Positions 2,248 to 21,420 of a stretch of DNA of 64,000 bases are shown piece by piece (position 1 is the stretch's first letter; each line of letters begins with the position of its first letter). Location of the stretch: NCBI GenBank assembly GCA_949284445.1, contig CASDVP010000007.1, forward strand, positions 19,107 to 83,106, written 5' to 3'. The translations under genes were made by a program, and so were the position numbers. Origin of the DNA: an uncultured Bacillota bacterium. GTDB lineage: Bacteria; Bacillota_I; Bacilli_A; RFN20; CAG-288. The notes under the pieces are model-generated. The model was not told the origin of the DNA. It searched no databases and worked only from the letters and a program-made list of their open reading frames with translations.

Positions 2248-2275
2248 AAGATTATTGAGATAAAACTTTTCCTAA

Positions 2276-2310
2276 AATGACCACTGACTGAATAGCCAGT
2301 GGTCTTTTTT
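2276..2310 (+). terminator. Rho-independent terminator.
   Basis: Stem GACCACTG...CAGTGGTC followed by TTTTTTTT, directly after the lipoprotein stop codon. Confidence 0.7.
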
Positions 2311-2318
2311 TTGAGCTT

Positions 2319-2978: not shown

Positions 2979-3072
2979 AATTCTCTTAGCCTCATAATTA
3001 TTGTAAAGGAAAAAGTAGAGTTGACAAAACACTTTTAACTATTTCTATGAAAGGTATTTAAAGTTTGCTACA

Positions 3073-4449: not shown

Positions 4450-4645
4450 AACAGACCTCGTTAATCATATTCAAAGCAACTGATATTAAGTCTAAATGAC
4501 TTTTATATTATATAGAAATTATCGTTTGTATTCAAATTGTAAAGAACTTTTTATTATCAGTTATTTATGTATTTACAAATAAAATAAATTATCATATTAC
4601 AAATTTATAGCTATGCGGTATACTATTAAAAAAGAGGAGAGATAT

Positions 4646-5620
4646 ATGAAAAAATCTATCTTATATTTATGTTTGCCGTTACTGCTTTTAGGTTTAAGCT
4701 CTTGTGATTCTACTGGTGGTGGTTCTGACACTACCAATACCAAACCTATCAGTGGTACTAATAACAGCAGTGGAACGACTGAAAAACAAGCTGAAGATTT
4801 CACGATTAAAACTTCAGATAATGGCTTGTCTGCTGATACAAGCAGTTATACTTTTGCTAATGCTGAAGAAGGTGATGATTATCCAGATGCCGTTATCGCT
4901 TTGACAACTGATCAAACTTGGCTTCATTGCACGGGACTCAACGAAAACTACACCAAAATCATCATCGAAGATGAAACTGTTTTACCGAAGGATTCGGTCA
5001 CGATGCATACGGTCTTAAACAGAGATATCGTCGGTGCTAGTGGTTCAAATGATATCGACGGCATCAATTTGATCTTAGATAGAAAATTGATAAAGCCTGG
5101 TGATAGTAAATTAAAATTACAAGTCAGACCGTCAAATGGAAGCTCTTCTATCGCTAAGACAACCACTATTTGTGTAGATGTTCATGTCAAAGAATTCGGC
5201 ACGATTATGGTTGATACTTATGATGTTGATGTCAAAGTCAATCTTGATGGCTTAGCTGACACGATTAAAAAAGAATCTGAAAATCCTACCTCTATAACAT
5301 TAAGTATCACTGATTCATCAGATAGAGAAGAAGTTTATGGCTATTCTGCTGATTATAGTTCTCAAACTGATATTCCGTTAGCTGAGATCCCTGCTGAAAT
5401 CAGTGTATCTGACATCAAATATGCAGTAGGTCATACCTACAAAATGTTTATTTTTGTAGAAGGTGAAAAAGTCAGTGATAGAATTTGGCTTTCACTCAAA
5501 GCAAGTTCCACCACTGATGGCTATTCAATCAGATCTGAAAGTGCTAGTCAAAGCATTTTAGAAGTCACTAAAGACGGAGTCACTGTTGAAGCTGAAATAG
5601 ATACTTATCTAGCTTTATAA
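4646..5620 (+). CDS. Surface lipoprotein, hypothetical.
   Basis: AAGAGGAGAG RBS before the ATG at 4646. Signal peptide with lipobox LLLGLSSCDS. Ser/Thr/Gly-rich linker. Confidence 0.6.
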   Translation: MKKSILYLCLPLLLLGLSSCDSTGGGSDTTNTKPISGTNNSSGTTEKQAEDFTIKTSDNGLSADTSSYTFANAEEGDDYPDAVIALTTDQTWLHCTGLNENYTKIIIEDETVLPKDSVTMHTVLNRDIVGASGSNDIDGINLILDRKLIKPGDSKLKLQVRPSNGSSSIAKTTTICVDVHVKEFGTIMVDTYDVDVKVNLDGLADTIKKESENPTSITLSITDSSDREEVYGYSADYSSQTDIPLAEIPAEISVSDIKYAVGHTYKMFIFVEGEKVSDRIWLSLKASSTTDGYSIRSESASQSILEVTKDGVTVEAEIDTYLAL

Positions 5621-5653
5621 TTCAATAACTCTTTATTATCTTAAGTATCAGAT

Positions 5654-5702
5654 ACCGATGAACGCTCTGTTATCATCAAGAGATTCATCGGTATTTTTAG
5701 TT
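5654..5702 (+). terminator. Rho-independent terminator.
   Basis: ATACCGATGAA...TTCATCGGTAT stem followed by TTTTT. Confidence 0.6.
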
Positions 5703-5839
5703 GTCATGTTTTTTAAGATTAGAGTAAAAAATGAATTAGGCTATATTTAAAAAATGACAACTTATAATTATCAAAATTGCTAATAATTATTTGACTTTTG
5801 AAAAAGCTAAATTTATCATTTTATTAACTGAAGGGGGCT

Positions 5840-7612
5840 ATGAAAATGGATAAATTAGTCATTAATCTTAAAAGAATTCTTGAACTGAGGAATATACCTT
5901 ATAAACAGTTCTTAGTGGATATTTGTAGAGAAATTTTAGCTAATGAACCGACAAAATCAGAAAATACATGTTACGAAATGGCTGAAAAAGAAAAAGCTAA
6001 CTTTTCCAATATGCTTAAAGGCGCTAGACCGCTTAGTAAGGCTTTCTATATTCCGATAGAAAAAGTGCTCGGTATATCTCTAGCTTCAATTTGTGATGGA
6101 ACTTTTGAGAAAGGGCTATTTATAAATAAAGGGCTACGTTATACAGCTAGCTTAGATGATTATCAAAAATATTGTGAGCTATTTGAGGAAAAGAGCAATG
6201 ACCATGAAGTCATAAGAGAAGTATGGCAAAATTATGATGAATATGACAATAATCTTTTGACGTATATTTTACAATATCAGTCTTTAGAAGGCTTAAAAGC
6301 TTTGCATGATAAAAAGGGTGCTAAAGTTGATTACTGTAATACACATTTGAATATATTAAATGGCTTTAAAGATGAAGTTTCTGATATTCTCAGTCTTATT
6401 TGTTCAAAGGATTCAGATGAGGTTTTTAATCAATATTTTGATATTTATCAGACATTCATAGACAATTCGTTTGATAAAGATTGGCTTGGGTTGCTGTCAG
6501 ATGAAAAAAATATGGACCAAATCTTAAAAGCCCAGAAAATATTATCAAGTATTCTTAATGACAGAAAAGTCAAAGTTAGTGAGCTCAATCCACGAAGAGG
6601 GATTAATGATGAAAAAGAAGTTATGATAGCAAGTCCATATATCTATTATCTTTTGAACTTTGCACTTAAACATTGTGATACCTATTTAGAACAAGCAAAA
6701 CAGATGATTCGTCATGGAATTTCTTACAATAAAAAGCTGAATAAGTTTTTAGAAAATAATACTGATTATTCTTATTGTAGAATAGAGGATAATGGGACCA
6801 TTTATAATGGCGTCTTGCTTTATGGAAATATCATTACTTATAAACTGGAGACTCAGACAAATTTTGATCATGAAATAGAAATGCTACTAGATGATTTGAA
6901 TAAAACTATCAATGAGATAAAGTTTTATGATAAGCCTAAGACAGGTGGTCTCTCATTAAAAGGTGTAAGAATTGTAAATGGAAATTTATTGAAAGCTCAT
7001 TCTGGCAATGAAGTCGAATATGAGTTCTTACAAAAAGTTGAAAAATATGATTTACCATTCATTCCTAAGCTGATATCGGTTAACGATAAATTCGATACTT
7101 TTACCTATTTTAAAGGAAATTCTTTAAGCTATGATTACACAGATTCTTGTTCTTTAGAAATTATTAAACAAGTCATAGAAGCCATCAAAAAGAAAGATGA
7201 AGTTTCAAAGGAAATTCTTGGCAATAATAAAGTGTATGTCCATGCTGATCTTTCTCTTAGAAATATGATTTTTGATAAAAATGAGTTTGTTGGATTTATT
7301 GATTGGGATACTGCACATATCGGTGATGAAAGTGAGGATCTTATATATTCTATTTGGCAACTTTTAAATATAGGTAGTCTAACGAGAAATAATAATTTAT
7401 TGTATGATCGATTTAAGCAAGCAATATCTTTTTATAAACCTTCAAAGGAGCTCAAACATAATTTTGCTGATAAGATGATCCTAGTTATGAATAATGTCAT
7501 CAAAGGAACTTCAAACGATAATCCTAATTATCAACGCATATATGAATGGGTAGGTTGGAGCAAGATTTGGGTTGAATTATTTAGAGATAAGATTAAGCAG
7601 GATATCGGATGA
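5840..7612 (+). CDS. Fusion protein: N-terminal XRE-type HTH, a central helical region, and a C-terminal APH/CotS-like kinase fold (phosphotransferase family).
   Basis: The N-terminus (LKRILELRNIPYKQFLVDI...NMLKGARPLSKAFYIPIEKVLGISL) looks like an HTH_XRE domain. The C-terminus carries a Brenner-type catalytic loop (VHADLSLRNMIF) and an IDWD/DFG-equivalent (GFIDWDTAHIGDESEDL), as in aminoglycoside/choline kinase-like enzymes. The stop overlaps the next gene by 4 nt. Confidence 0.6.
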   Translation: MKMDKLVINLKRILELRNIPYKQFLVDICREILANEPTKSENTCYEMAEKEKANFSNMLKGARPLSKAFYIPIEKVLGISLASICDGTFEKGLFINKGLRYTASLDDYQKYCELFEEKSNDHEVIREVWQNYDEYDNNLLTYILQYQSLEGLKALHDKKGAKVDYCNTHLNILNGFKDEVSDILSLICSKDSDEVFNQYFDIYQTFIDNSFDKDWLGLLSDEKNMDQILKAQKILSSILNDRKVKVSELNPRRGINDEKEVMIASPYIYYLLNFALKHCDTYLEQAKQMIRHGISYNKKLNKFLENNTDYSYCRIEDNGTIYNGVLLYGNIITYKLETQTNFDHEIEMLLDDLNKTINEIKFYDKPKTGGLSLKGVRIVNGNLLKAHSGNEVEYEFLQKVEKYDLPFIPKLISVNDKFDTFTYFKGNSLSYDYTDSCSLEIIKQVIEAIKKKDEVSKEILGNNKVYVHADLSLRNMIFDKNEFVGFIDWDTAHIGDESEDLIYSIWQLLNIGSLTRNNNLLYDRFKQAISFYKPSKELKHNFADKMILVMNNVIKGTSNDNPNYQRIYEWVGWSKIWVELFRDKIKQDIG

Positions 7613-8955
7613 TGAAAAACAGTATCAAAAAAATATTTCAAAACCTAAAATATTTTGATTGGCATTTATATTTTGTACTTATATTTGTCGCTTTATTTCC
7701 TGCTATTTTACAAACAGTCAGAACCTATTTCTTATCTTCGGCGATTGATGTCAGTGAGTTTGATATTTTAGGTCAAATGGAATGGTTTGACCTTTTCAAT
7801 GAATGTATCATCGCAATGTTGATCATTCCTTTATATTCCATACTTAATACGTTTTTAAAAAATGATTCTGATCTTTTTCCAAAGCAAGTATTTAAAGCAG
7901 GAATCACTGTCGTTATTGTTTATGGTGCATTTTCAGGAATCATGTATGCATATGCAAAAAATGTGGTCAGATTTATGAATCCTGATGAATTCAAAATCGA
8001 TCAAATTGTCAGCTATCTAAATATGGAAACAATCGCATTTGTGCTTGGCATCATCATTCAATTTGCAAATGTCTGTTTTATCATTCTAGGAAAAACACAA
8101 AATTTCTACATTTATACTATATTAAATTCTATTCTTCTCATTTTTACTGATTATTTGTTAATTCCCAATTACGGCGTAAATGGTGTCGCTTATTCAAACA
8201 TCGCAATTAATGGTGTGCTTGCTATAGGGATGATTGTCTTATTGGTGTCAGAACATAAAATTCAGCCAAGCTGGTTTGATAAAAAAGATAAGAAAATGTA
8301 TAGCGATTGGGCAAAGATAGGTAGTGCCTCTTTATTTCAATCCGTTTTGGACAATTTGATCTATATTCTAATGGTCGTAAAAATGGTTAATTCGGCATCT
8401 AGTGCTGGCAATTATTGGATAGCTAATAACTTCATTTGGTTATGGCTTTTAATCCCTGTTACAGCACTAGCCGAGATCATTAGAAAAGATTGCATAAACG
8501 GATATAACGGTTTGAAACAGAGCAATTATTATATGATATTATGCTTTATATTTATTATATGGCTTTATTTAATTCCTTCCTGGAAGCCATTCTTTCAAAA
8601 TGTAGAAAAATTGGAGAACTATTCTGAAATTTATGATATCACGTTTAAATTGTTTTGGTTTTATATTGCTTATGCTCTTTCTGTAGTTCCGGATAATATT
8701 TTTATTGGTTTAGGAAAAACTAAATATTCATTTCTTAATTCTTTTGTAGTCAATGTCATCTATTATGGTATTTTCTATTTGGCATATGTGACAACCGGTT
8801 TTAAGATGACAATTGATATCATCATCATGATGTTTGGATTTGGGATGGTAGTCCATTTGATTGTTAGTCTTCTTGAAGAAAAGATACTCTTAGTAAAAGA
8901 GTTACGTAACTCGAACAATAAGGAGGAGAATAACCTATTCATAAAAGGGGGTTAA
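7609..8955 (+). CDS. Polytopic membrane protein of the MOP (MATE/Wzx/MurJ-like) exporter superfamily.
   Basis: 448 aa with roughly 12 predicted TM segments. It contains the GVNGVAYSNIAINGVLAIGM motif. An ATGA overlap with the upstream kinase-like gene suggests translational coupling. Confidence 0.5.
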   Translation: MMKNSIKKIFQNLKYFDWHLYFVLIFVALFPAILQTVRTYFLSSAIDVSEFDILGQMEWFDLFNECIIAMLIIPLYSILNTFLKNDSDLFPKQVFKAGITVVIVYGAFSGIMYAYAKNVVRFMNPDEFKIDQIVSYLNMETIAFVLGIIIQFANVCFIILGKTQNFYIYTILNSILLIFTDYLLIPNYGVNGVAYSNIAINGVLAIGMIVLLVSEHKIQPSWFDKKDKKMYSDWAKIGSASLFQSVLDNLIYILMVVKMVNSASSAGNYWIANNFIWLWLLIPVTALAEIIRKDCINGYNGLKQSNYYMILCFIFIIWLYLIPSWKPFFQNVEKLENYSEIYDITFKLFWFYIAYALSVVPDNIFIGLGKTKYSFLNSFVVNVIYYGIFYLAYVTTGFKMTIDIIIMMFGFGMVVHLIVSLLEEKILLVKELRNSNNKEENNLFIKGG

Positions 8956-9237
8956 TACGAAGAAAGAGTAAATATATTTAGCAGCACTATTGTTTATCTT
9001 TTTTTAAATTTATTTCCTTTGTTTTTCATTAATCAAATCGTAATCTGATTTATCGCCTGCTTTTTAAGTATTGTCCCAAAACTTTAAGAAGTCCCAATAA
9101 GAAGTCTCAAATAGTATTAAACTCTTGCTAGAGTTCTTGCTTTTTATTTTCAAGGTTGCCTAAATAGTTATTTCTACTGCCTAATCTTTCATGAGCATCG
9201 TAGCTATTTTTCAATATTAAATATCGGAATATATACT

Positions 9238-9276
9238 TTATAACCGTAAAACTTTTAAATTTAAAAATTTTTACGA
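9238..9276. repeat. Degenerate copy of the palindromic element ATAACCGYAAAACTTTTAAATTTAAAAAYTTTTRCG. A second copy lies at 10519..10559.
   Basis: Sequence ATAACCGTAAAACTTTTAAATTTAAAAATTTTTACGATTAG. The 10.5-kb copy is a perfect 12-bp-stem hairpin. The two copies flank the ATPase gene at 9277..10491. Confidence 0.6.
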
Positions 9277-10491
9277 TTAGATTGTTTTCAATATATTTTC
9301 ATTTAATAAGAAATCAAAAATGTTTATCATCTTATATCCTTTTTCTAATCTAGTAAAAGGATTGTCATCAGCTGTTATGATCACTTTTTTATATCCATCA
9401 TCTAACCCTTTAAATGCTGATAATTCTCTTTCTTTAGTGTCAGGATCTTCAATGGTTAAAGAAATTTGAATATAGTATTGGTCATCAGATGTTTTTACAA
9501 CAAAGTCGATCTCTTTGGAATTATTTTTTCCAATATCAACTACGTAATTACGTCTGATAAGCTCTAAAAAAACTAAATTTTCTAAAATGTGTGTCATTTC
9601 AATTTGACGAAAATTGATCTTTTCATTTCTTAAACCTAAATCACATGCATAATATTTGTTCAGTGTTTTTAGATATTCTTTTCCTTTTAAGTCATATCTA
9701 GAAGTTTTATAAAATAAGAAACTATCGCAGATATACTTCAAATAATAGGAAATAGTTTCATTATTGACTGTCTTATAATTATTTGATTTCAAAGTATTTG
9801 CAATCTTGTTAGGGGAGACAACAGATCCTACCTGTGAACATAGTAATTCTAATAATGAATTAAATAATGAGGCATTTTTAATTTTGTTTCGTTCAACTAT
9901 ATCTTTAAAACCGATTGTTTCATTCAGCATTTTTAAATAATCGATTTTTTCATAAGCCTTATCTAATGTGGATATATATGGCATTCCACCATACATGATA
10001 TATTCTTTGAAGGTTTGCTTTATATCCCCACCTCTATGATCATAAAACTCTTTAAAAGATAGGGGATATACTTTTATTTCAATCCCTTTTCCACGCAATT
10101 TGGTATTTATTTCACTAGAAAGAAGCTTGGAATTAGAGCTGGTAATGTATAAATCGCAATTGAAATCGATTTTAATACCGTTGACTAAGTCTTCAAAATT
10201 ATCGATCAATTGAATTTCATCGATGAAAATATAATATTTGTTATCATCGATGATGCGTTTATTGATGTAATCATATAAAGCATTTATGTTTCTGAGATTT
10301 GTAAACTTATTGGATTCTAAATTTATTGATATAATGTGATTTTTATCGATGCCACTATCAATCAGATATTTATAGTATATTTCAAATAGTAAATAAGATT
10401 TTCCACAGCGTCTTATCCCAGTGATTATTTTTACGATGTCTTTATCTTTGTAGTCTATTAATTTTGAAAGTAACAGATCTCTTTTGATCAT
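9277..10491 (-). CDS. AAA+ ATPase of the COG1373 type (AAA_14 N-domain plus a DUF4143-like C-domain).
   Basis: Walker A GIRRCGKS and Walker-B-like YIFIDEIQ. The C-terminal EIDFVVKT...YYIQIS segment is typical of the DUF4143 restriction-endonuclease-like region. Confidence 0.7.
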   Translation of the reverse strand: MIKRDLLLSKLIDYKDKDIVKIITGIRRCGKSYLLFEIYYKYLIDSGIDKNHIISINLESNKFTNLRNINALYDYINKRIIDDNKYYIFIDEIQLIDNFEDLVNGIKIDFNCDLYITSSNSKLLSSEINTKLRGKGIEIKVYPLSFKEFYDHRGGDIKQTFKEYIMYGGMPYISTLDKAYEKIDYLKMLNETIGFKDIVERNKIKNASLFNSLLELLCSQVGSVVSPNKIANTLKSNNYKTVNNETISYYLKYICDSFLFYKTSRYDLKGKEYLKTLNKYYACDLGLRNEKINFRQIEMTHILENLVFLELIRRNYVVDIGKNNSKEIDFVVKTSDDQYYIQISLTIEDPDTKERELSAFKGLDDGYKKVIITADDNPFTRLEKGYKMINIFDFLLNENILKTI

Positions 10492-10518
10492 AATGTAATC
10501 CTCATTGATAATATTATA

Positions 10519-10559
10519 ACCGCAAAACTTTTAAATTTAAAAACTTTTGCGGTTATATT
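10519..10559. repeat. Perfect palindrome/hairpin (ATAACCGCAAAA - loop - TTTTGCGGTTAT). Probable terminator for the upstream ATPase gene and repeat partner of 9238..9276.
   Basis: 12-bp inverted repeat with a 17-nt AT loop, downstream of the 10745..12184 minus-strand gene. Confidence 0.6.
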
Positions 10560-10744
10560 TGCAACTTATATCAAGTGCTAGATATTCTTTTCTCCATTAT
10601 TTTGTAGTCAAGCTTATATATTATGATGCTTTTTATCTGATATCTTACGATGGACTTTTGCACACCCTTTTATTTCTAATTTTTTTAAATCTGTTATGAC
10701 AATATTTATTAATTGATTTTGAAATTGGTTTTCCAAATAAATTT

Positions 10745-12184
10745 CTATTTTAATGGTTTTAACATCGTCTTTAAATCGATCAAATGAAGCCTATGATCAG
10801 CAACTTTTCTTAAAGAACTATCGAATCCATTTGCTCCGAACAAATAGAACTCAACATTTTTGTAATTTGATAGAGATGGTACAGATATATCTTCACACAT
10901 ATCTTTATAGTCTTGATAAGTTCTTTCCTGTTTAGAAAATTTTGATTTTCCGATAAGTAAATTATCACCAGCAGTACCGACAATATCTAGCTCTATACTT
11001 CTTCCTAAATTTTTACTATTTATATTCAAATTTTCAAATTGTTGGTAGAAAGTTTGTAGTCTTCCTTTTTTATTAAGAAAATTTAGATAAGTCATGCATT
11101 CTTTCTCGAAAGCATGTTCTATAAATTCTTTTATAGCATTTTCGTATTGCTTTCTTATGACTTTTCCAGCTCCGCTTTTAATCCATTCAACATTTCCTCT
11201 AATAAAGCGATAAAAGAATGCCATCATTTGATCAAAAATTTCATAGTGAACATCTCTTTTAGAATGAAAAGAAGATCTTCTAATCAACACGTTATCTTCG
11301 ACAAGTTGAGATACATATTTAGTTATTTTGCTACTATCTTCTGAAAAAAAGAGACTTAGATCTTTTATAGTATCATAGCCTTCACTAATAGCTTTGATGA
11401 TTGAAGCATATAAGCCACCAGTTGCTACATCAGAGGTAATAACTTTGCTAGGATCGTCTGCAAAAATAGCAGTTCTATCAAAAAAGAGACGATTCATATT
11501 GTCGTTGAAACTCTTGCTAGTATCTATCAGTGAAAGATAATATGGGAATGTGTTAGTCAATGCTAAAAACTTAGCTTTTTCCAAAAGATCTTTCACATCG
11601 GATAATGCTGAGATAGCTTCATCAAATTCAAATTTGTTTAGTAATAGTTGAAAGGTGTTTCTTTTGTAAAGAGGTGCCTTACTATCTTGAATTTCTTTTT
11701 CCATAAATGAAACATTACTTCCAGTTAGAATAAGAGTGAATTTTCCTTTTCTAAATAACATATCTATAGCTTTTTGAAGCGAAGAAGTGAAATCAGTTTT
11801 CTTTCTTTTGCCGTCTCTAGTCAGAATGAGATTCGGATATTCATCAATGACTAAAAGTCCTTTTTCATCCCCAAAATATTCGTTTACACTTTCAAAAAAT
11901 GCATTCCAATCTGTATATACTCCACTAGAATAACCTAAAAGCCTATTTAATTCTCTAGAGAAAACTAATCTATTATCAAGATCTTCACTATCAGTTGCAA
12001 AAAGAAAGAGTGATTTTTCCCCTTCAGCTAGCATTTGCATCAAAGTTGTTTTACCGATTCTTCTTTGCCCATAGACATATCCAAATTCAAAACGATCACT
12101 ATCATAAAAACTATTAAGCAATTTAAGTTCTTCTTTTCTTCCATAATATCTTTTCATACAGCAACTCCTATCAGAATATGTCAT
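10745..12184 (-). CDS. AAA+ ATPase of the COG1672 type (Arch_ATPase N-domain plus a DUF234-like C-domain).
   Basis: Walker A GQRRIGKTT and Walker B LLVIDEYPNL. C-terminal ..IELDIVGTAGDNLLIGKSKF, as in the DUF234 PD-(D/E)xK-like region. The true start is probably the internal Met (MKRYYGRKEEL). Confidence 0.7.
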   Translation of the reverse strand: MTYSDRSCCMKRYYGRKEELKLLNSFYDSDRFEFGYVYGQRRIGKTTLMQMLAEGEKSLFLFATDSEDLDNRLVFSRELNRLLGYSSGVYTDWNAFFESVNEYFGDEKGLLVIDEYPNLILTRDGKRKKTDFTSSLQKAIDMLFRKGKFTLILTGSNVSFMEKEIQDSKAPLYKRNTFQLLLNKFEFDEAISALSDVKDLLEKAKFLALTNTFPYYLSLIDTSKSFNDNMNRLFFDRTAIFADDPSKVITSDVATGGLYASIIKAISEGYDTIKDLSLFFSEDSSKITKYVSQLVEDNVLIRRSSFHSKRDVHYEIFDQMMAFFYRFIRGNVEWIKSGAGKVIRKQYENAIKEFIEHAFEKECMTYLNFLNKKGRLQTFYQQFENLNINSKNLGRSIELDIVGTAGDNLLIGKSKFSKQERTYQDYKDMCEDISVPSLSNYKNVEFYLFGANGFDSSLRKVADHRLHLIDLKTMLKPLK

Positions 12185-12556
12185 CTTAAATGTAACAATA
12201 ATAAATCATATTTGCTAGTATTACGGAATACGTATTCAGTGAATACGTAGTAAGCAAACTTAAAACCATAACTTTTATAACGGATTTGTATCGTCTTTTC
12301 ATTTTTAAATATCTATTCATCATGGTTGTAGTTCTAGGACCAACTATTATTTCATTTTTAACGCAGAAATATTTGTCTGATAGTAATTATTTTTTAGCAT
12401 TTTAGGTGATATGGTTATTTCATCTTTTTTATCTATTTATTAGGGTTCTCTTTTTCTGACTTTTGAAAATAAAGATTTATCACATCTTGTATTTGTATTT
12501 AAGACGATTGATAAATCTGACATTGAATTTGAATATGAATAAAAGCAAATAAAAAC

Positions 12557-12578
12557 TACAATGCCTAGGCATTGTAGC
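12557..12578 (-). terminator. Terminator hairpin downstream of the tRNA.
   Basis: Perfect palindrome CTACAATGCC-TAGG-CATTGTAG, followed on the minus strand by TTTTTATTTGCTTTT. Confidence 0.6.
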
Positions 12579-12593
12579 ATTTAACAAGATAAT

Positions 12594-12667
12594 TGACCCT
12601 AACGGGATTCGAACCCGTGGATGCAGCCTTGAGAGGGCTGAGACTTAAGCCGCTTGTCGATAGGGCC
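12594..12667 (-). tRNA. tRNA, 74 nt, no encoded CCA. By my hand fold the anticodon is CUC (Glu).
   Basis: Minus-strand sequence GGCCCTATCGACAAGCGGCTTAAGTCTCAGCCCTCTCAAGGCTGCATCCACGGGTTCGAATCCCGTTAGGGTCA. The acceptor stem is GGCCCTA/TAGGGTC with a G-U pair. T-arm is ACGGG-TTCGAAT-CCCGT. The anticodon stem is CAGCC/GGCTG with loop CTCTCAA. The D-loop contains GG. The anticodon assignment is less certain than the tRNA call itself. Confidence 0.75.
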
Positions 12668-12736
12668 ATCAAGCGCCTTAATAATATAAATTAAAGAAGT
12701 GAATTAAGCAAGTATTATTATAGTTGAATCAGTTGA

Positions 12737-13558
12737 CTAAATTGGTGTTTGATCATGATTTATCAGACTTTTAATAGAAATTATTTCTTCGATAATTGCT
12801 TTAAATGACATAAAGCAAAAAGCGGTGATACACAAAGTGAAGAAGCATTGTGATAGGGAGTGATTAGAAAACATTTTTCCACTCATATCTGAAAAGCCTA
12901 TTGTTGTAAACAGAATTATAGAAATAGTGATCAGAAAGATGTTGATGATAGATATTGTTATGAAACGATGTAGCTTGTTGTTTGAATTTTGCTTTATCAG
13001 TATTAGCAATGGAGATGAGAATAGCGACAGCGCACTTATCGCTATCAGCCAAGATGGTCCTAAAAAATTGTTTTCTACACTATACATAATTAGGTTAGAA
13101 ATGACCATGAGATTTGATGCCATTCCAAAACTATATTCAGTGATCAGCAAGTGATAAGTTTTTCTATCATTTGAATGATAAGTCTTCAGTTTAATAAAAG
13201 CTGGTTTATAAATGAAGAAGAAAATAATCAAAAATTCTATGCAAGCCAAAATGCCTAAAATATAAAGAATAGTTGAACCAAAAGAGTTGAAGGACAGAAA
13301 ACCTAAAATCATAAAAGGTAGTAATAATATGACCTCTTTAATAATTGATATTATGAAATACAAAATTTGGATATTTTCTTTGTCTCTATATGCATAAACA
13401 TAAAGTGTTTGTAAACAACATAAAACAATGACCGGAATGAAGAAGAGAAGCGTGATAGATGAAAAAGACGTTATTAAAAAGTAGATGAAATAAATCAGTA
13501 ATAGAAATGTGATCAGTGAGTTGATGGTGAATAGCATGATATTTTTTAGATTTTTCAT
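12737..13558 (-). CDS. Polytopic membrane protein, hypothetical.
   Basis: 273 aa with 7-8 hydrophobic segments and no recognisable motif. Separated by only 4 nt from the upstream gene at 13563..14849. Confidence 0.45.
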   Translation of the reverse strand: MKNLKNIMLFTINSLITFLLLIYFIYFLITSFSSITLLFFIPVIVLCCLQTLYVYAYRDKENIQILYFIISIIKEVILLLPFMILGFLSFNSFGSTILYILGILACIEFLIIFFFIYKPAFIKLKTYHSNDRKTYHLLITEYSFGMASNLMVISNLIMYSVENNFLGPSWLIAISALSLFSSPLLILIKQNSNNKLHRFITISIINIFLITISIILFTTIGFSDMSGKMFSNHSLSQCFFTLCITAFCFMSFKAIIEEIISIKSLINHDQTPI

Positions 13559-13562
13559 ATAT

Positions 13563-14849
13563 CTATATTTTGTTATAGACTACACTAAAAGTATATTCTG
13601 TTTTAGATAAATTGTTTGCAGCAGTTATATATCTTACATTAGTATCATTAACCCAAGAGAATGTGATTGAAGTAGCTGACCAATTTTGATAGATATCTAC
13701 TGTGTTTGATTGGCGAGCTGCTAATTTAAAACTTTTAATATCTCCTAATCCTTCCCAATCTCTAGCGTGTTCTTCAAAACACATTTTAGTATTGTACTCA
13801 ACAGTAATGTCAAAATTATTAGGATTGAATACTTCAATAGTCCAAAAACTACTGTTCCACCAGAATTTATCAGTAAAATCATATAAATGGAGTTGTAAAA
13901 AATTATCCATAGCTATTGATATCGAAATGGTATTTATACCTCTAGTTAAATCAACTGGTAAGCATGGCATAGTTTTTGGATTAAACTTATAATTATAAGT
14001 AGAGACGATGTCTAATCCTGCATAGTAATAGGCAGCAAAAATAAGTTCAGAACAATACCAAGAAGGGGAATTGATATCCGTTCTTGTATATTTAAACTCA
14101 AGTGGATTCGGCTCATATGGCTTGCCTAATTGCTGTGAGATAAATTCTTTTGCGACTTTAGTAGCACCTAATTCACCCGCTCGATAAATTCTGTAGATTG
14201 TAACGCCGTAGTCCAAAACTCTTGTATCATCTACAAAGCCATATTGCACGCCACCAGCAACAGCTTCAACTGTTTGGATATAATTACCATAATCACTATC
14301 CTTCGAGTTATTATAAACAAATGCCACATGTTTTAAATCAAAACTGGCCATAGCTTCAAAAACTATGTCACCAGTTTGGATTACTGAATAATCATAGTTA
14401 GAGTAAACTGGTTTTCTTTTAAAATATTTTTTATTTGTTTTATTTGGCTCTCCAATGTCACTATCTAATATATAATTTGCATCTGTAGAGCTAGAGTTGG
14501 AACTAGCACTTAGAGGATTTATAAATGGATAATCATTTGAACATAAAAAAATGATAAATTCATCAATTGAATACTGGTGCTCATAGTACAAATCAACAAA
14601 CATATCATAAGAGACAGGTTCGAAATCTGTATTTTTTTCTAAATAAATATCATAATAATATTCAAATAAGTCAAGATAACTAAAGACTTCTTCACCAGTA
14701 TATTTTTGTGTTTTATTATTCTGGTTTGTTTTTCTTATATTCGAAACAACTTTATTAGAGGCGCATTCATTCTTGCTTGTAGATAAATTTGCAGAACCAA
14801 GAGTCAGCAAAGAGGTAAACACAAAGAAAATAAATTTTGTATTTAACAT
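13563..14849 (-). CDS. Secreted protein with a permuted papain-fold (NlpC/P60-superfamily, YiiX/YaeF C92-like) amidase/acyltransferase domain.
   Basis: N-terminal signal peptide (MLNTKFIFFVFTSLLTLGSANLS). The order TGDIVF...HVAFVY (His) then ...SPSWYCSELIFAAYYYAG (the YCSE Cys motif) places His before Cys, as in permuted NlpC/P60 members. Confidence 0.5.
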   Translation of the reverse strand: MLNTKFIFFVFTSLLTLGSANLSTSKNECASNKVVSNIRKTNQNNKTQKYTGEEVFSYLDLFEYYYDIYLEKNTDFEPVSYDMFVDLYYEHQYSIDEFIIFLCSNDYPFINPLSASSNSSSTDANYILDSDIGEPNKTNKKYFKRKPVYSNYDYSVIQTGDIVFEAMASFDLKHVAFVYNNSKDSDYGNYIQTVEAVAGGVQYGFVDDTRVLDYGVTIYRIYRAGELGATKVAKEFISQQLGKPYEPNPLEFKYTRTDINSPSWYCSELIFAAYYYAGLDIVSTYNYKFNPKTMPCLPVDLTRGINTISISIAMDNFLQLHLYDFTDKFWWNSSFWTIEVFNPNNFDITVEYNTKMCFEEHARDWEGLGDIKSFKLAARQSNTVDIYQNWSATSITFSWVNDTNVRYITAANNLSKTEYTFSVVYNKI

Positions 14850-15094
14850 ATAGTCATTCCTCTTTTTTGTTCTATAAAAATCTTAATTAAAAATTCCTTT
14901 TAAAACAAGTTGTTTTATTTTTTCATTAAATATGATATTCTTTTCTGTAGCACTTTTTATGTGCTAATAAACATAGATGTGAATCTTGTCGACTAGTCCT
15001 TTATGCCGCACCAACCTATAGATAAGTTTCAACGCTTAGCATACTGGGTTGACATCTCGAAACATCTAGAAGAACAACAAAAAGGAGGCTCAAA

Positions 15095-16144
15095 ATGAGC
15101 GAAGAAGAGAAGAAAGAAGTCGAAACTACTGCCCCTGCTACTGATGTCATGGCTAGCACAGTCCATGCTGAGACTGATAGAGTTGTCAGTCCTAAAACCT
15201 TATTAGATGCCGGTTGCCATTTCGGACACCGTGTCTCTCATTGGAATCCGAAGATGAGACATTTCATCTATGGCAAGAGAAACAATCTCCACATCATCGA
15301 TTTAAACAAGTCTGCTGAACAGATTCAAACCGCTTATCATGCTTTAAAGGACATCGTTTCTAAAGGTGGTAAAGTCTTATTTGTCGGCACTAAAGCCTAT
15401 GCTCAAAAAGCTATTCAAGAAGAAGCTGTTCGTTCTGGTTCTTTCTATGTCTCACATAGATGGTTAGGCGGAACTTTGACCAACTTCAGAACTATCTGCA
15501 AACGTATCGCTTTACTCAAAGAGATCGAACAAGAAGAATTGACTGGTGGTTTTGATAACCTCTCCAAGAAAGAAGTCGCTGAAAAGACCAAGTTAAAGAA
15601 CAAGCTCAGCCAAAACTTAGAAGGTATCAAAGAGATTAGATTACTTCCTAACGCTTTAGTCGTTGTCGATCCTAAGACTGAACACAACGCTGTCGCTGAA
15701 GCAAGAGCATTACATATCCCTGTTTTCGCTTTAGGTGATACCAATACTGATCCTGATGAGATCGATTATTTGATCCCTGCTAATGATGATGGCGAAGCTT
15801 CTATCCGCATCGTCGTCGGTTTATTAGCTGATGCTGTTGTCGAAGGTAAAGGCGGTGAACCCTTATATGCTTATAAAGATGCTGAAGCTGCTTCTTCCAC
15901 TATGGCTGAAATGCTCAAAGCTGTCGATCCTAATGAACAGATCAAATCCATCCGTTCTAAGCTCAGAGATGATGCTATCGCTATGAGAAAGAGCGCTAAA
16001 GGTGGAAGAGTCGTCAGAAGAAAAGTTAATAAGAATTTTAAAAAAGCTCCTGCTAGAAGCAAAGAAGCTAACTCTGCTGAAGCTCCTGCAACTGAAAAAC
16101 CTGCTGAGACTACTGCTGAAGTTAAAACTGAGGAGAGCAAGTAA
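15095..16144 (+). CDS. rpsB: 30S ribosomal protein S2, with an N-terminal extension of about 30 aa and a C-terminal Lys/Ala/Glu-rich extension of about 90 aa.
   Basis: S2 core (LLDAGCHFGHRVSHWNPKM...VSHRWLGGTLTNF). AAAGGAGG RBS 7 nt before the ATG. TAATG overlap with tsf. Confidence 0.95.
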   Translation: MSEEEKKEVETTAPATDVMASTVHAETDRVVSPKTLLDAGCHFGHRVSHWNPKMRHFIYGKRNNLHIIDLNKSAEQIQTAYHALKDIVSKGGKVLFVGTKAYAQKAIQEEAVRSGSFYVSHRWLGGTLTNFRTICKRIALLKEIEQEELTGGFDNLSKKEVAEKTKLKNKLSQNLEGIKEIRLLPNALVVVDPKTEHNAVAEARALHIPVFALGDTNTDPDEIDYLIPANDDGEASIRIVVGLLADAVVEGKGGEPLYAYKDAEAASSTMAEMLKAVDPNEQIKSIRSKLRDDAIAMRKSAKGGRVVRRKVNKNFKKAPARSKEANSAEAPATEKPAETTAEVKTEESK

Positions 16145-17031
16145 TGAGCAATATTATTGAACTTATCAAACAGCTCCGTGATCGCACTGGTGCTGGTTTG
16201 ATGGATTGTAAGAAAGCCTTGATCGAAAACGGCGAAGATTTAGAAAAAGCCGCTCTTTGGTTAAGAGAAAAAGGCATTGCCAAGCAAGAGAAGAAAGCTT
16301 CTCGTACTGCTGCTGAAGGTGTCGCTTGGGTTAAGACTAGCGGAAACAAAGCGGCTATCATCGAAATTAACTGTGAAACTGATTTCGTCGCTAACTCTGA
16401 TCCTTTCAGAGAATTAGTCAAAGGTGTTAATGATATCGTCTTAGCTGCTGAACCTAAGACCAAAGAAGAAGCCTTAGCTTGCACTGATAAAGATGGTAAA
16501 TCTATCAAAGATTTATTTGTCGATGCTGGTATCAAACTCGGTGAGAAATTAGATTTCCGTCGTTTTGCTATCATCGAAAAGAGCGATGATGAAATCTTTG
16601 GTCCTTATATTCATATGAATGGTAAGATCGCTACCTTAGTAGTTTTAAAAGGTGGTGATGCTGAAATCGCTAACGGTATCGCTTTGAATGTCTGCAATGA
16701 TAATCCCACTTATATCTCTGATGCCGATATCCCTAGTGATGTCATCGCTAGAGAGACTGAGATCGAAAAAGAAGCTTCTTTAAACGATCCTAGCTTTGCA
16801 AAGAAGCCTGCTAATATCCAAGAGAAGATCATTGAAGGTCGTGTTAAGAAGAATTTAGGTTCTTCTGTCTTGACCGAACAGGTCTATATCTTAGATCAAG
16901 AGAAGAAAGTCGGCGATGTTCTCAAAGCTAGCAAAGCTACTGTTTCTTCCTTTATCCGTTATGCAGTCGGTGAAGGTATCGAAAAGAAACAAGAAGATTT
17001 TGCTGCTGAAGTCGCAAGTCAAATGAAGTAA
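16144..17031 (+). CDS. tsf: Elongation factor Ts.
   Basis: IKQLRDRTGAGLMDCKKAL N-terminal UBA-like motif; follows rpsB as in most bacteria. Confidence 0.95.
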   Translation: MSNIIELIKQLRDRTGAGLMDCKKALIENGEDLEKAALWLREKGIAKQEKKASRTAAEGVAWVKTSGNKAAIIEINCETDFVANSDPFRELVKGVNDIVLAAEPKTKEEALACTDKDGKSIKDLFVDAGIKLGEKLDFRRFAIIEKSDDEIFGPYIHMNGKIATLVVLKGGDAEIANGIALNVCNDNPTYISDADIPSDVIARETEIEKEASLNDPSFAKKPANIQEKIIEGRVKKNLGSSVLTEQVYILDQEKKVGDVLKASKATVSSFIRYAVGEGIEKKQEDFAAEVASQMK

Positions 17032-17088
17032 AAATCTTATAAAGCACCCAACTATTGGGTGCTTTATTTCTAAGCAGGAGAAAAAAAG

Positions 17089-17799
17089 ATGTATAAGAGA
17101 ATATTATTAAAAATATCTGGTGAAGCCTTAGAAGATAAAGATAACCATCATTCTTATGATCCCGCTTTTATTAAAACTATTTCTGACGTTGTTAAAGAGA
17201 TCTCTGATATGGGAATCGAAATAGCTATCGTTGTCGGTGGTGGCAATATTTGGCGCGGCAATTTAGCTCCTTCTATCGGCATCGATAAAACCACTGGTGA
17301 TTATATGGGTATGCTGGCTACTATCATGAACGGCATGGCTTTACAGGCTACTTTTGAAAAGAATGGATTAGTCACTAGAGTGATGTCTGCATTACCGTTA
17401 AACGCTTGTTGTGAACCATATATCTTAAGAAAAGCTATCAGACACTTAGAAAAGAAACGCGTCGTCATCTTCGCTTCGGGTGTCGGTTCACCATTCTTCA
17501 CCACTGATACCGCTGCGGCTTTAAGAGCTAAAGAGATCAAAGCTGATGCAATATTGATGGGCAAAAACGGTGTGGAAGGCGTGATGGATGACGATCCGCG
17601 AATCAATAAGAATGCTAAACTCTTAAAGAATGTCACTTATCAAGATATCTTAGCTAAAAACTTAAAAGTTATGGATTCGACCGCTGTCGGTCTATTAGCT
17701 GATTCTAATATCCAGATCAAAGTTTTTAATATGTCTGATCCTTTTAATGCTGTGAGAGTCTTAAAAGGGGAAGAATTAGGCACTACCATAAAAGCCTAA
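17089..17799 (+). CDS. pyrH: UMP kinase.
   Basis: ILLKISGEAL...VVGGGNIWRG motifs; conserved rpsB-tsf-pyrH-frr synteny. Confidence 0.95.
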   Translation: MYKRILLKISGEALEDKDNHHSYDPAFIKTISDVVKEISDMGIEIAIVVGGGNIWRGNLAPSIGIDKTTGDYMGMLATIMNGMALQATFEKNGLVTRVMSALPLNACCEPYILRKAIRHLEKKRVVIFASGVGSPFFTTDTAAALRAKEIKADAILMGKNGVEGVMDDDPRINKNAKLLKNVTYQDILAKNLKVMDSTAVGLLADSNIQIKVFNMSDPFNAVRVLKGEELGTTIKA

Positions 17800-17854
17800 A
17801 GATTTTTTTGTCTAAATATAGTAAAATATTAACATTATATCGGAGGTATTTCTT

Positions 17855-18397: not shown

Positions 18398-18400
18398 TAA

Positions 18401-21418: not shown

Positions 21419-21420
21419 TT

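What the first reader, a model, noticed from the sequence alone, without database searches (positions are those of the whole stretch)
9238..12184. Tandem orphan AAA+ ATPases (COG1373/DUF4143-type and COG1672/DUF234-type) flanked by a palindromic repeat and sitting next to a tRNA gene
Two same-strand genes encode STAND/AAA+-like ATPases. Their C-terminal regions (EIDFVVKT..YYIQIS; IELDIVGTAG..IGKSKF) belong to families predicted to have restriction-endonuclease-like folds. The first gene is bracketed by two copies of a 36-41-nt palindromic element: a perfect 12-bp-stem copy at 10519-10559 and a degenerate copy at 9238-9276. The pair lies about 400 bp from a tRNA gene. This layout (a tRNA-adjacent, repeat-flanked ATPase plus nuclease-like unit) is reminiscent of small defense or mobile islets, but no integrase or transposase is present and the function is unknown.
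Basis: partly seen in the sequence, partly recalled or inferred. Interest (0 to 1): 0.55.

Follow-up and report, generated by a model that had tools for sequence, protein, structure and literature searches.

The report
Self-flanked ATPase gene modules beside tRNA
Two independently acquired single-gene modules, each encoding an ATPase fused to a DNA-binding and a nuclease-like domain (untested phage-defence candidates), sit in a variable slot next to a tRNA gene, and the "palindromic repeat" is one gene's own promoter-embedded recognition site, repeated at its stop codon, a layout that recurs across this very abundant family.

Summary
Two minus-strand genes are present: AAA_14+DUF4143 (9277-10491) and ATPase_2+DUF234 (10745-12184). 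A palindrome lies at 10516-10556, a degenerate copy at 9240-9280, and tRNA-Glu(CTC) at 12593-12668.

The genes match PADLOC candidates PDC-S01 and PDC-S27, which are untested. One published heterologous test of each type was negative.

They are not a pair. Close homologues of each occur alone in unrelated contexts.

The palindrome is not a terminator or genome-wide repeat. Half-sites TAACCGCAAAA/TTTTGCGGTTA, 17 bp apart, enclose the -35 and abut the -10 of the DUF4143 promoter in about 20 genomes. A second copy sits at the stop codon in about a third. Distant subfamilies keep this layout with different palindromes, so the site is most likely the protein's own operator.

The DUF234 gene has its own 15-bp tandem repeat.

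Relatives keep the tRNA but carry different cargo 3' of it, so the locus is accessory. The DUF234 module is 97% identical to a copy in another species' defence island, against 78-84% for core DNA. Here it carries E413K in the nuclease motif.

Function is unproven, and a mobile-cassette reading is not excluded.

The parts
9277..10491 (-). DUF4143-type AAA+ ATPase gene (404 aa; PADLOC PDC-S01). It has Walker A GIRRCGKS and Walker B IFIDEIQ, a wHTH-like three-helix region at about residues 207-257, and a C-terminal alpha-beta-beta-beta-alpha-beta domain with conserved E304, E327-x-D329 and Q342-x-S344.
   Evidence: (PDLC04787, E=1.7e-136, full length)
10516..10556 (.). Upstream cognate palindrome of the DUF4143 gene. 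The half-sites are TAACCGCAAAA and TTTTGCGGTTA with a 17-bp AT-rich spacer. On the minus strand the spacer holds the -35 (TTTAAA, 10541-10536), and the right half-site runs straight into the -10 (TATAAT, 10518-10513). The core ends 27 nt before the ATG.
   Evidence: (best promoter-like hit of the region, 10/12)
9240..9280 (.). Second, degenerate copy of the same palindrome, beginning at the stop codon (the TAA is part of the left half-site). The C-to-T change in one arm is matched by a G-to-A change in the other, so dyad symmetry is kept (1 arm mismatch).
10745..12184 (-). DUF234/ATPase_2-type STAND-like ATPase gene (479 aa; PADLOC PDC-S27). Architecture is AAA+ followed by a MarR-like wHTH and a PD-(D/E)xK domain. 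This species' allele carries E413K in the otherwise nearly invariant E-x-K motif.
12222..12252 (-). Cis-element of the DUF234 gene: two 15-bp-period direct repeats (minus strand TACGTATTC-ACTGAA-TACGTATTC). They lie at the 5' edge of the 1.5-kb segment that is 97% identical to L053. Homologues carry repeats with an equivalent ACGTA core.
12593..12668 (-). tRNA-Glu(CTC), conserved in related species and marking the edge of the variable slot. Its own intrinsic terminator lies at 12555-12578.
5617..12592 (.). Species-specific cargo 3' of the tRNA: an APH-like kinase, a MATE transporter and the two ATPase modules. G+C is low (26-31%), and the segment is replaced by other genes in relatives.

Best explanation
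The locus holds two autonomous, horizontally acquired single-gene modules in a hypervariable slot 3' of tRNA-Glu(CTC). Each encodes an AAA+/STAND-type ATPase fused to a winged-helix DNA-binding domain and a C-terminal PD-(D/E)xK-type domain. These are members of PADLOC candidate families PDC-S01 (DUF4143) and PDC-S27 (DUF234).

Each module carries its own cognate repeat in its promoter.
- For DUF4143 the repeat is the 'palindromic element': half-sites TAACCGCAAAA/TTTTGCGGTTA, 17 bp apart, that enclose the -35 and abut the -10.
- For DUF234 it is a pair of 15-bp direct repeats with an ACGTA core.

Inferred mechanism. The protein's own wHTH binds these sites and represses its own promoter. This keeps a potentially harmful ATPase-nuclease at a low level. 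The second DUF4143 palindrome, at the stop codon, is a second binding site for the same protein. It may act in cooperative binding or looping, or as a 3' boundary or roadblock.

What is shown:
- gene families and domain order;
- position, conservation, fixed spacing and subfamily-specific covariation of the sites;
- accessory status of the locus, and recent transfer of the DUF234 module.

What is inferred:
- which protein binds the sites;
- that binding represses transcription;
- any anti-phage role.
For: Site and gene travel together.
- In about 20 loci from different genomes and unrelated gene contexts, a 35-nt core ACCGCAAAA-N17-TTTTGCGGT lies mostly 21-27 nt before the ATG of 62-80%-identical homologues (extremes 14-35 nt, with one at 274 nt). 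It is followed by TATAAT, and a TTGAnA-like -35 sits in the spacer.
- Across the window and the first 52 loci fetched (those held), the motif occurs only beside these genes.

Second copy.
- An intact second copy lies 0-24 nt after the stop codon in L014, L015, L020, L023, L024 and the window.
- In L020, L024, L043 and the window the two copies are identical or nearly so, even in the unconstrained spacer.

Covariation with the protein.
- Subfamilies at 34-40% identity keep the same layout with different palindromes: GTGTTACAA.., TGTGTCACAAATT.., and TCGTTGGAA-N20-TTCCAACGA. One MAG (SUG1176) carries two subfamilies, each with its own palindrome.
- Symmetric arm variants (CCGTAAAA/TTTTACGG, CCGAAAAA/TTTTTCGG) go with changes in the putative recognition helix, DNETIS to DNDxxS or DNETIA.

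Statistics.
- The best inverted-repeat score in the 100 nt upstream has median 11, against 6 for 144 control genes in the same loci (Mann-Whitney p=1.6e-11).
- Upstream-versus-downstream self-similarity exceeds shuffles in 10-12 of 32 loci.

Site decays with the gene. The palindrome is eroded in the pseudogene L051.

DNA-binding domains.
- The DUF4143 model shows a three-helix wHTH-like region.
- The DUF234 model (pLDDT 90) has a winged helix.
- The DUF234 family profile hits the MarR repressors AdcR and ZitR at E=4e-4.
- The DUF234 repeat recurs in homologues at 57-97% identity, at or around the promoter.

Accessory status and transfer.

Family assignment.
Against: - No binding or expression data exist. 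The promoter assignment is a consensus match in AT-rich DNA, and the total number of promoter-like hits in the region is not above chance.
- The half-sites are about 26 bp apart centre to centre, roughly 2.5 helical turns. This is unusual for a simple dimeric HTH repressor.
- In a related group (38-39% identity, downstream of rplQ) the same half-sites lie upstream of a consensus promoter rather than inside it.
- About two thirds of loci lack the downstream copy, so it is dispensable.
- The Moraxella plasmid homologue shows no obvious palindrome.
- Homologous loci are phylogenetically related, so the statistics overstate independence.
- The DUF4143 structural model is only moderate (pLDDT 66), and Pfam wHTH matches are below threshold.
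- One heterologous test of one representative each of PDC-S01 and PDC-S27 gave no phage protection.
Confidence: 0.6

Rival explanations
1. The palindromes are the ends, or recombination or recognition sites, of a mobile single-gene cassette. On this reading the DUF4143 gene with its flanking palindromes is a selfish module. It would be moved or homed either by its own ATPase-nuclease or by a host recombinase acting at the palindromes.
For: - Homology between loci in different contexts begins and ends at the outer edges of the palindromes.
- The two copies within a locus are identical or nearly so, even in the spacer, in L020, L043, L024 and the window. This suggests recent duplication or conversion.
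- A contig with 94-99% identical flanks (L149) lacks exactly 1243 nt, the ORF plus its 5'UTR, while keeping the palindromes.
- Solo palindromes with no gene nearby exist in L153, L152 and L084.
- The neighbouring DUF234 module moved between species as a 1.5-kb unit bounded by its repeat and its last codons.
- PDC families were defined because they are found embedded inside other defence operons.
Against: - Most loci have only the upstream copy.
- The L149 breakpoints do not fall between two repeated palindromes. They share only a CTT microhomology, and 8 unexplained nucleotides remain.
- No filled/empty pair was found in which the empty site carries exactly one palindrome.
- There is no recombinase nearby.
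- The upstream copy has a sufficient explanation as a promoter/operator.
- The DUF4143 nuclease motif lacks the canonical (D/E)xK.
Confidence: 0.2
2. The palindrome is a generic intrinsic terminator or a REP-like intergenic repeat scattered through the genome, and only happens to flank this gene.
For: - As RNA it would fold stably: -19.3 kcal/mol (z -5.8) for the upstream copy and -11.1 kcal/mol for the downstream copy.
- The upstream copy lies downstream of the co-directional DUF234 gene.
- In a very large metagenome scan, the bare arms pattern also matches many unrelated terminator hairpins.
Against: - There are only two copies in the 64-kb window, and none elsewhere in the first 52 loci searched.
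- It has no T-tract and was not called by the terminator scan, which did find the tRNA terminator.
- In other genomes it keeps a fixed distance to the ATG of DUF4143 genes whatever the upstream neighbour's orientation.
- The spacer is not consistently self-complementary.
- No Rfam family matches.
Confidence: 0.03
3. The two ATPases form one two-gene defence system, a sensor ATPase plus an effector, acting together.
For: - They lie on the same strand, 253 bp apart.
- A DUF4143 gene and a DUF234 gene are also adjacent in L053.
- Both are PADLOC candidates.
Against: - Homologues of the DUF4143 gene at 75-80% identity stand alone next to UDG, Fic, RNase J, MATE or flavodoxin genes.
- DUF234 homologues stand alone in L055-L058 and L168.
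- In L053 the order is reversed and the DUF4143 partner belongs to another subfamily.
- Each gene has its own promoter element.
- PADLOC models both as single-gene systems.
Confidence: 0.05
4. The palindrome is the operator of another regulator encoded elsewhere in the host genome, and the DUF4143 gene is merely one member of that regulon.
For: - A few solo palindromes lie next to other genes, for example between a macro-domain gene and nadE in L153.
- Binding by the DUF4143 protein itself is untested.
Against: - The palindrome type changes with the DUF4143 subfamily, even within one genome.
- The site accompanies the gene across Bacilli, Clostridia and a spirochaete.
- Most extended-arm matches lie next to DUF4143 genes or their remnants.
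Confidence: 0.07

Closest known systems
PADLOC phage-defence candidates PDC-S01 (AAA_14+DUF4143) and PDC-S27 (ATPase_2+DUF234)
   Same: Both proteins give full-length HMM matches: 1.7e-136 to PDC-S01 and 1.8e-39 to PDC-S27. Both are single-gene ATPases fused to a PD-(D/E)xK-superfamily domain, as described in PMC12988326. Both sit in accessory, island-like contexts.
   Different: These families are predictions from 'guilt by embedding' and are untested. One representative of each gave no protection in E. coli B against T7, T5 and T4. The papers I could search do not mention the flanking or promoter-embedded cognate repeats. The window's DUF234 allele has E413K in the catalytic motif.
Archaeal Orc1/Cdc6 initiators with ORB inverted repeats next to their own gene
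   Same: Both have an AAA+ module followed by a winged helix. Orc1/Cdc6 and ORC subunits are among the fold matches. Both have inverted repeats flanking an AT-rich spacer immediately upstream of the gene.
   Different: These loci sit between ordinary chromosomal genes and show no evidence of replication function. The proteins carry an extra nuclease-like domain, and a promoter is embedded in the site. This is a resemblance in layout only.
MarR-type autoregulated winged-helix repressors (AdcR, ZitR)
   Same: The DUF234 family profile matches their wHTH at E=4e-4 to 2.5e-2. Repeated sites lie in the gene's own promoter region.
   Different: Here the wHTH is one domain of a 479-aa STAND-like ATPase-nuclease. 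The sites are direct 15-bp repeats, not a short palindrome. Binding is untested.
PABY2304 (PDB 2qen) and SSO1545 (PDB 2fna) archaeal Walker-type ATPases; STAND NTPases (Apaf-1, plant NLRs, Avs3)
   Same: These are the best structural matches of the DUF234 model: TM 0.63-0.66 normalised to the target for 2qen and 2fna, followed by NB-ARC/STAND proteins.
   Different: The two archaeal structures have no assigned function. STAND immune receptors carry large sensor repeat domains that are absent here.
Integron gene cassettes (attC), pdif modules, REP/RAYT units
   Same: In each, a single gene is bracketed by imperfect palindromes. The stop codon lies inside the palindrome, as is often the case for attC.
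   Different: The element is 41 nt and fully symmetric, against 57-141 nt with extrahelical bases for attC. Its spacer is 17 bp, against 6-8 bp for dif sites. No IntI, Xer-type context or HUH transposase is present, and the palindrome is not dispersed in the genome.

Membership tests
PADLOC PDC-S01 | Full-length match to a PDC-S01 HMM, as a single-gene system | tested here: met
   PDLC04787 E=1.7e-136, residues 1-398 of 404
PADLOC PDC-S01 | Confers anti-phage protection | not testable with these tools
   The family is listed as an untested candidate. One representative was negative against T7, T5 and T4 in E. coli B.
PADLOC PDC-S27 | Full-length match to a PDC-S27 HMM | tested here: met
   PDLC04984 E=1.8e-39, residues 10-420 of 479
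Pfam AAA_14 + DUF4143 (COG1373) | Both domains above the gathering score, with Walker A and Walker B motifs | tested here: met
   113.7 bits against a cut-off of 27, and 64.8 bits against 28.1. GIRRCGKS and IFIDEIQ are invariant in alignment A1.
Pfam ATPase_2 + DUF234 (COG1672) | Both domains above the gathering score | tested here: met
   54.7 bits against 33.2, and 24.1 bits against 22.5
PD-(D/E)xK nuclease (DUF234 domain) | Intact catalytic D ... (D/E)xK motif | tested here: not met
   E398-x-D400 and K415 are invariant. E413, which is E in 21 of 22 aligned sequences, is K in the window allele. K413 is fixed in this species' copies.
PD-(D/E)xK nuclease (DUF4143 domain) | alpha-beta-beta-beta-alpha-beta core with E, D and (D/E)xK | tested here: inconclusive
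   The predicted topology fits. E304 and D329 are conserved, but the third motif is Q-x-S/A/C in all sampled relatives.
STAND / ORC-type AAA+ with winged helix | NTPase, helical lid and winged-helix fold | tested here: met
   The DUF234 model (pLDDT 90) matches 2qen, 2fna, Apaf-1, NLRs, Avs3 and Orc1/Cdc6. The DUF4143 model (pLDDT 66) gives generic AAA+ matches to clamp loader, ORC, DnaA and MalT.
Classical tRNA-integrated genomic island | Integrase gene plus a direct repeat of the tRNA 3' end at the far border | tested here: not met
   There is no second copy of the tRNA 3' end at up to 3 mismatches, and no integrase among neighbouring genes. The slot is nevertheless hypervariable.
Intrinsic terminator | G+C-rich stem, short loop, T-tract | tested here: not met
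   Neither palindrome was called by the terminator scan, which did find the tRNA terminator.
Integron cassette / attC | 57-141-nt imperfect palindrome with R''/R' cores and extrahelical bases; IntI or an attC array nearby | tested here: not met
   The element is 41 nt and symmetric. There is no integrase, and only the two copies flank this one gene.
REP / RAYT unit | Many dispersed REP copies and a flanked HUH Y1 transposase gene | tested here: not met
   There are two copies in 64 kb and none elsewhere in the first 52 related loci searched. The flanked gene is an AAA+ ATPase.
Autoregulated wHTH repressor with an operator in its own promoter | The protein binds a repeat overlapping its own promoter | not testable with these tools
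   The position, conservation and covariation of the sites fit this, and the wHTH has MarR similarity. Binding itself was not measured.

The most novel reading that the evidence does not exclude
DUF4143/PDC-S01 genes, reported as the fourth most common 'defence' call in prokaryotes, are self-recognising single-gene cassettes. On this reading the encoded ATPase-wHTH-nuclease specifically recognises the palindromes that bracket its own gene. It uses them for more than autoregulation: for its own excision, insertion or homing, or as a 'self' reference site. That would make these genes a new class of selfish or guardian element. It would explain their abundance, their embedding inside other defence operons, gene-sized presence/absence polymorphisms such as L149, and the near-identity of the two flanking copies within a locus.
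Probability: 0.15. Interest if true: 0.8.

Novelty: new member of a known kind. Interest (0 to 1): 0.5.

Why it matters
[quoted passage not shown] The only reported test of each was negative.

This analysis shows three things:
- DUF4143 genes carry a subfamily-specific palindrome inside their promoter.
- That palindrome is often repeated at the stop codon.
- DUF234 genes carry their own 15-bp repeats.

Together these give a concrete, cheap handle. The proteins are very probably sequence-specific DNA binders whose first target is their own locus. That allows direct experiments (EMSA, reporter fusions, ChIP, two-site cleavage assays). It also cautions against counting these genes as defence systems before their activity and possible selfish mobility are understood.

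The window's locus itself is an ordinary member of these families.

Tried and rejected
- **Terminator or REP reading.** Rejected on copy number, lack of a T-tract, and fixed position relative to the ATG.
- **Known RNA family.** No Rfam match on the palindromes.
- **tRNA-island att repeat.** None found.
- **Operon or two-gene system.** Rejected from the contexts of homologues.
- **Reverse search.** The bare pattern ACCGCAAAA-N17-TTTTGCGGT found 94 loci in the metagenome collection. Most are unrelated hairpins, so 18 specified bases are too weak at that scale. Only matches with extended arms (TAACC...GGTTA) were informative.
- **Strain-level empty site at the window locus.** Exact-protein look-ups for the neighbouring MATE gene returned only the same arrangement.
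- **Tandem-array explanation for the downstream copy.** L024 was checked and has no second paralogue. Downstream copies generally lack the -35 and -10.
- **Phage carriage.** No close relatives in IMG/VR. Only homologues below 45% identity were found in 18 'phage' records and 237 plasmids.
- **Plasmid examples.** The 2.6-kb Prevotella 'plasmid' and the Moraxella plasmid copy gave no clear support for a replicon or pdif-module reading.
- **Sequence searches of the PDB.** Nothing was found for DUF4143.


Full report
**What is in the window**

Two ORFs lie on the minus strand: 9277-10491 (404 aa) and 10745-12184 (479 aa). Pfam assigns AAA_14 plus DUF4143 to the first and ATPase_2 plus DUF234 to the second, all above the curated cut-offs. 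Both Pfam families are listed as PD-(D/E)xK superfamily members of unknown function in Steczkiewicz et al. 2012 (PMC3424549).

It gave one match at up to 3 mismatches, against none in shuffles. The degenerate copy lies at 9240-9280 with 5 mismatches and overlaps the stop codon of the 404-aa gene. The two copies form a 46-nt direct repeat at 89% identity.

tRNA-Glu(CTC) lies at 12593-12668 on the minus strand. It has its own terminator hairpin at 12555-12578.

**What the genes are**

Both proteins give full-length matches to PADLOC candidate families: PDC-S01 (E=1.7e-136) and PDC-S27 (E=1.8e-39).

These are 'phage defence candidates' proposed because such genes are found embedded in other defence systems. 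They are explicitly untested (bioRxiv 10.1101/2024.01.29.577857). PDC-S01 is reported as the fourth most common defence call in prokaryotes, and both types are described as ATPases fused to PD-(D/E)xK domains (PMC12988326). The one heterologous test I found used E. coli B challenged with T7, T5 and T4. It gave protection for other candidates but not for the PDC-S01 and PDC-S27 representatives (bioRxiv 10.1101/2024.09.26.614923).

The DUF234 protein:
- An AlphaFold model has pLDDT 90 and pTM 0.86. It shows an AAA+ core, a helical lid, a winged helix (helices 257-296, wing 300-316) and a C-terminal beta-beta-beta-alpha-beta domain.
- Its best structural neighbours are the uncharacterised archaeal ATPases 2qen and 2fna. 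Next come STAND proteins (Apaf-1, plant NLRs, Avs3) and Orc1/Cdc6.
- A family profile hits the wHTH of the MarR-type repressors AdcR and ZitR (E=4e-4 to 2.5e-2).
- The nuclease motif of the family is canonical: E398-x-D400 ... E413-x-K415. The window allele is E413K, the only exception among 22 aligned homologues. K413 is fixed in all copies of this species, while the 96-97%-identical copy elsewhere keeps E.

The DUF4143 protein:
- Its model is weaker (pLDDT 66). It shows the same domain order, with a three-helix wHTH-like region and an alpha-beta-beta-beta-alpha-beta C-terminal domain. Fold matches are generic AAA+.
- Its family conserves E304, E327-x-D329 and Q342. However, Q-x-S/A/C replaces (D/E)xK in every relative sampled, including archaeal ones. 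Nuclease activity is therefore uncertain.

**The two genes are not a unit**

Homologues of the DUF4143 protein at 75-80% identity stand alone among housekeeping genes:
- after UDG (L005);
- between Fic and RNase J (L009, L013);
- between a MATE gene and a flavodoxin gene (L020);
- before an EF-G-like gene (L015).

DUF234 homologues also stand alone (L055-L058, L168). In L053 a DUF4143 gene of another subfamily precedes the DUF234 gene, so the order is reversed.

**What the palindrome is**

In every close homologue the same element lies upstream of the ATG: AAYCGCAAAA-N17-19-TTTTGCGGTTATAAT.

Across 20 loci the 35-nt core ACCGCAAAA-N17-TTTTGCGGT has these properties:
- its length is fixed;
- in most loci it ends 21-27 nt before the start codon (range 14-35 nt, and 274 nt in L024);
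- it is followed directly by TATAAT;
- its spacer carries a TTGAnA-type -35.

In the window this is the best promoter-like match of the region: -35 at 10541-10536 and -10 at 10518-10513 on the minus strand, 10 of 12 positions. The half-sites therefore bracket the -35 and fill the -35/-10 spacer.

The motif occurs nowhere else in the window or in the loci held at that point (L001-L052). It is not called as a terminator and matches no Rfam family.

An intact second copy lies 0-24 nt after the stop codon in L014, L015, L020, L023 and L024, often with the TAA stop codon forming the start of the left half-site. A decayed copy is present in L005.

Homology between loci in different contexts is confined to about 60 nt (palindrome plus 5'UTR) upstream and about 40 nt (the second palindrome) downstream.

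**Covariation**

Subfamilies only 34-40% identical to the window protein keep the same architecture with different palindromes:
- AAGTGTTACAA..TTGTAACACTT upstream, with a related copy just after the stop (L037, L039, L041);
- TGTGTCACAAATT.. (L042, L044, L045);
- an identical 38-nt TCGTTGGAA-N20-TTCCAACGA on both sides of the gene (L043).

One MAG (SUG1176) holds two subfamilies, each with its own palindrome (L018 and L045).

Within the window's subfamily, symmetric arm variants occur: CCGTAAAA/TTTTACGG and CCGAAAAA/TTTTTCGG. They coincide with substitutions in the putative recognition helix. Phylogeny is a confounder here.

The window's downstream copy itself carries the compensated CCGT/ACGG variant.

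Statistics:
- Inverted repeats in the 100 nt upstream are much stronger for DUF4143 genes than for 144 control genes of the same loci (median score 11 against 6, p=1.6e-11).
- Upstream-versus-downstream similarity exceeds shuffles in 10-12 of 32 loci.

When the gene decays, the palindrome decays too (L051).

The most economical reading is that the palindrome is the protein's own recognition site: an operator within its promoter, plus an optional second site at the 3' end.

**The DUF234 gene has its own element**

Its upstream region carries TACGTATTC-ACTGAA-TACGTATTC, two units with a 15-bp period, at 12222-12245. Homologues carry equivalent repeats:
- AACAACGTAGTTACT twice, between the -10 and the RBS (L056-L058, 57% identity);
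- GAATACGTAGTGCCT-GAAGACGTAGTGCCT, present twice around the promoter (L168, 62% identity).

**Accessory status and mobility**

A sister species (S2 protein 95% identical; L063-L067) and a more distant one (88%; L068) were compared with the window.
- Both share the flanks: window 3-5616 and 14913-22757, at 78-84% nucleotide identity for the sister species and about 74% on the rpsB side for L068.
- Both share tRNA-Glu(CTC).
- Everything 3' of the tRNA differs. The sister species has two unrelated genes there, and L068 has a ResIII/Eco57I/DUF4357 cluster.
- The window also has a 2.2-kb insertion between the tRNA and rpsB that both relatives lack.
- The G+C content of 5.5-15 kb is 26-31%, against 35-42% outside.
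- No integrase and no repeat of the tRNA end are present.

The DUF234 module (window 12252-10747) is 97.2% identical to L053. The L053 copy lies in a different locus next to a resolvase, an InsA-like gene and a Gabija-like OLD/UvrD pair. L053 comes from the same sample as the sister-species contig. The homology begins exactly at the upstream repeat and ends about 15 nt before the stop codon. This indicates recent transfer of a single-gene module.

Evidence for the DUF4143 family comes from a group at 38-39% identity located downstream of rplQ. It uses the same half-sites in a doubled arrangement upstream of a consensus promoter. One contig in this group (L149, flanks 94-99% identical to the others) lacks exactly 1243 nt. 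The missing segment is the ORF and its 5'UTR, while the palindromes remain.

Other states seen:
- 5' and 3' remnants of the gene, and solo palindromes (L133, L137, L153, L152, L084);
- one copy split by an element carrying two large serine recombinases (L052).

These facts keep a 'mobile cassette' reading alive. However, no clean recombination between two palindromes was seen, and most loci have only the upstream copy.

**Verdict**

The finding is real, and its 'accessory islet next to a tRNA' flavour is right. The pair is a juxtaposition of two independent single-gene modules from known but uncharacterised candidate-defence families. The palindrome is the DUF4143 gene's own cis-element, not an islet border or a terminator.

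- The mechanism I favour (confidence 0.6) is autoregulation through the protein's winged helix at promoter-embedded cognate sites, with the second site serving cooperative binding.
- The main rival (0.2) is that the palindromes also serve mobility of the module.
- An anti-phage function remains unproven.
- In this species the DUF234 copy probably has a disabled nuclease (E413K).

The locus is an ordinary member of its families. What has value beyond this window is the family-wide architecture of flanking cognate repeats. I found no mention of it in the papers I could search: three for DUF4143, and none for DUF234 function.

Noticed in passing
window 10946-10948 (codon 413 of the gene at 10745-12184): E413K substitution (GAA to AAA) in the otherwise nearly invariant E-x-K nuclease motif of the DUF234 protein. 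K413 is fixed in all four copies of this species, while the 96-97% identical copy in another species keeps E. This suggests a nuclease-dead allele.
   Followed up: yes
window 12721-14912: A 2.2-kb insertion lies between tRNA-Glu and rpsB. It carries a 273-aa multi-pass membrane protein and a 428-aa secreted protein with a weak Peptidase_C92 match. It is absent from both related species, where the tRNA lies about 250-450 nt from rpsB.
   Followed up: partly
window 5840-8955: A 590-aa protein with a C-terminal APH/RIO-like kinase domain overlaps by 4 nt a 448-aa MATE-family transporter gene. Both are species-specific cargo of the same variable slot.
   Followed up: no
L149 5530-5600 versus L086 3351-2108: Near-identical contigs (94-99%) differ by exactly 1243 nt, equal to a DUF4143 ORF plus its 5'UTR. 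The doubled palindrome TTTTGCGGTTATAACCGCAAAA is retained in the gene-less version. The junction shows only a CTT microhomology and 8 extra nucleotides.
   Followed up: partly
L052 4001-7473: A DUF4143 gene is interrupted after codon 26 by an element encoding two large serine recombinases (557 and 498 aa). The palindrome and the 5' stub remain.
   Followed up: partly
L053 1-17440: A defence-island-like region holds a second DUF234 gene, a DUF4143 gene of another subfamily (upstream palindrome TCGATTATAATCGA), the 97%-identical DUF234 module, a resolvase, an InsA-like protein, an OLD/TOPRIM ATPase with a UvrD-like helicase (Gabija-like), and DUF6339.
   Followed up: partly
L068 3233-9489: In a related species the same slot 3' of tRNA-Glu(CTC) holds a ResIII helicase, an Eco57I-like methylase and a DUF4357 cluster (RM-like). 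The slot therefore collects defence-type cargo.
   Followed up: no
L059 (NZ_CP133466.1, 2630 bp, circular): A Prevotella nigrescens 'plasmid' consists only of a DUF4143 ATPase gene and a TaqI-like specificity-domain gene. Two GCGTWTTTACGC motifs lie upstream of the ATPase. It could be an excised circle or an assembly artefact.
   Followed up: no
L115 96-365: An environmental metagenome contig has five tandem matches to ACCGCAAAA-N17-TTTTGCGGT at a 59-nt period. This is an unrelated repeat array.
   Followed up: no
L009 5714-5770 and 7814-7867: Two copies of a terminator-like hairpin element (AGGATTAG..CTAATCCTATTTTTCAA) bracket the 2.1-kb segment that holds the DUF4143 gene and an apparent coding remnant, between the Fic and RNase J genes.
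   Followed up: no
L164-L167 (IMG/VR contigs): Viral contigs matched the pattern only through clusters of TTTTGCGG iterons (..TTTTGCGGTTATTTTGCGG..) and carry no DUF4143 gene.
   Followed up: no
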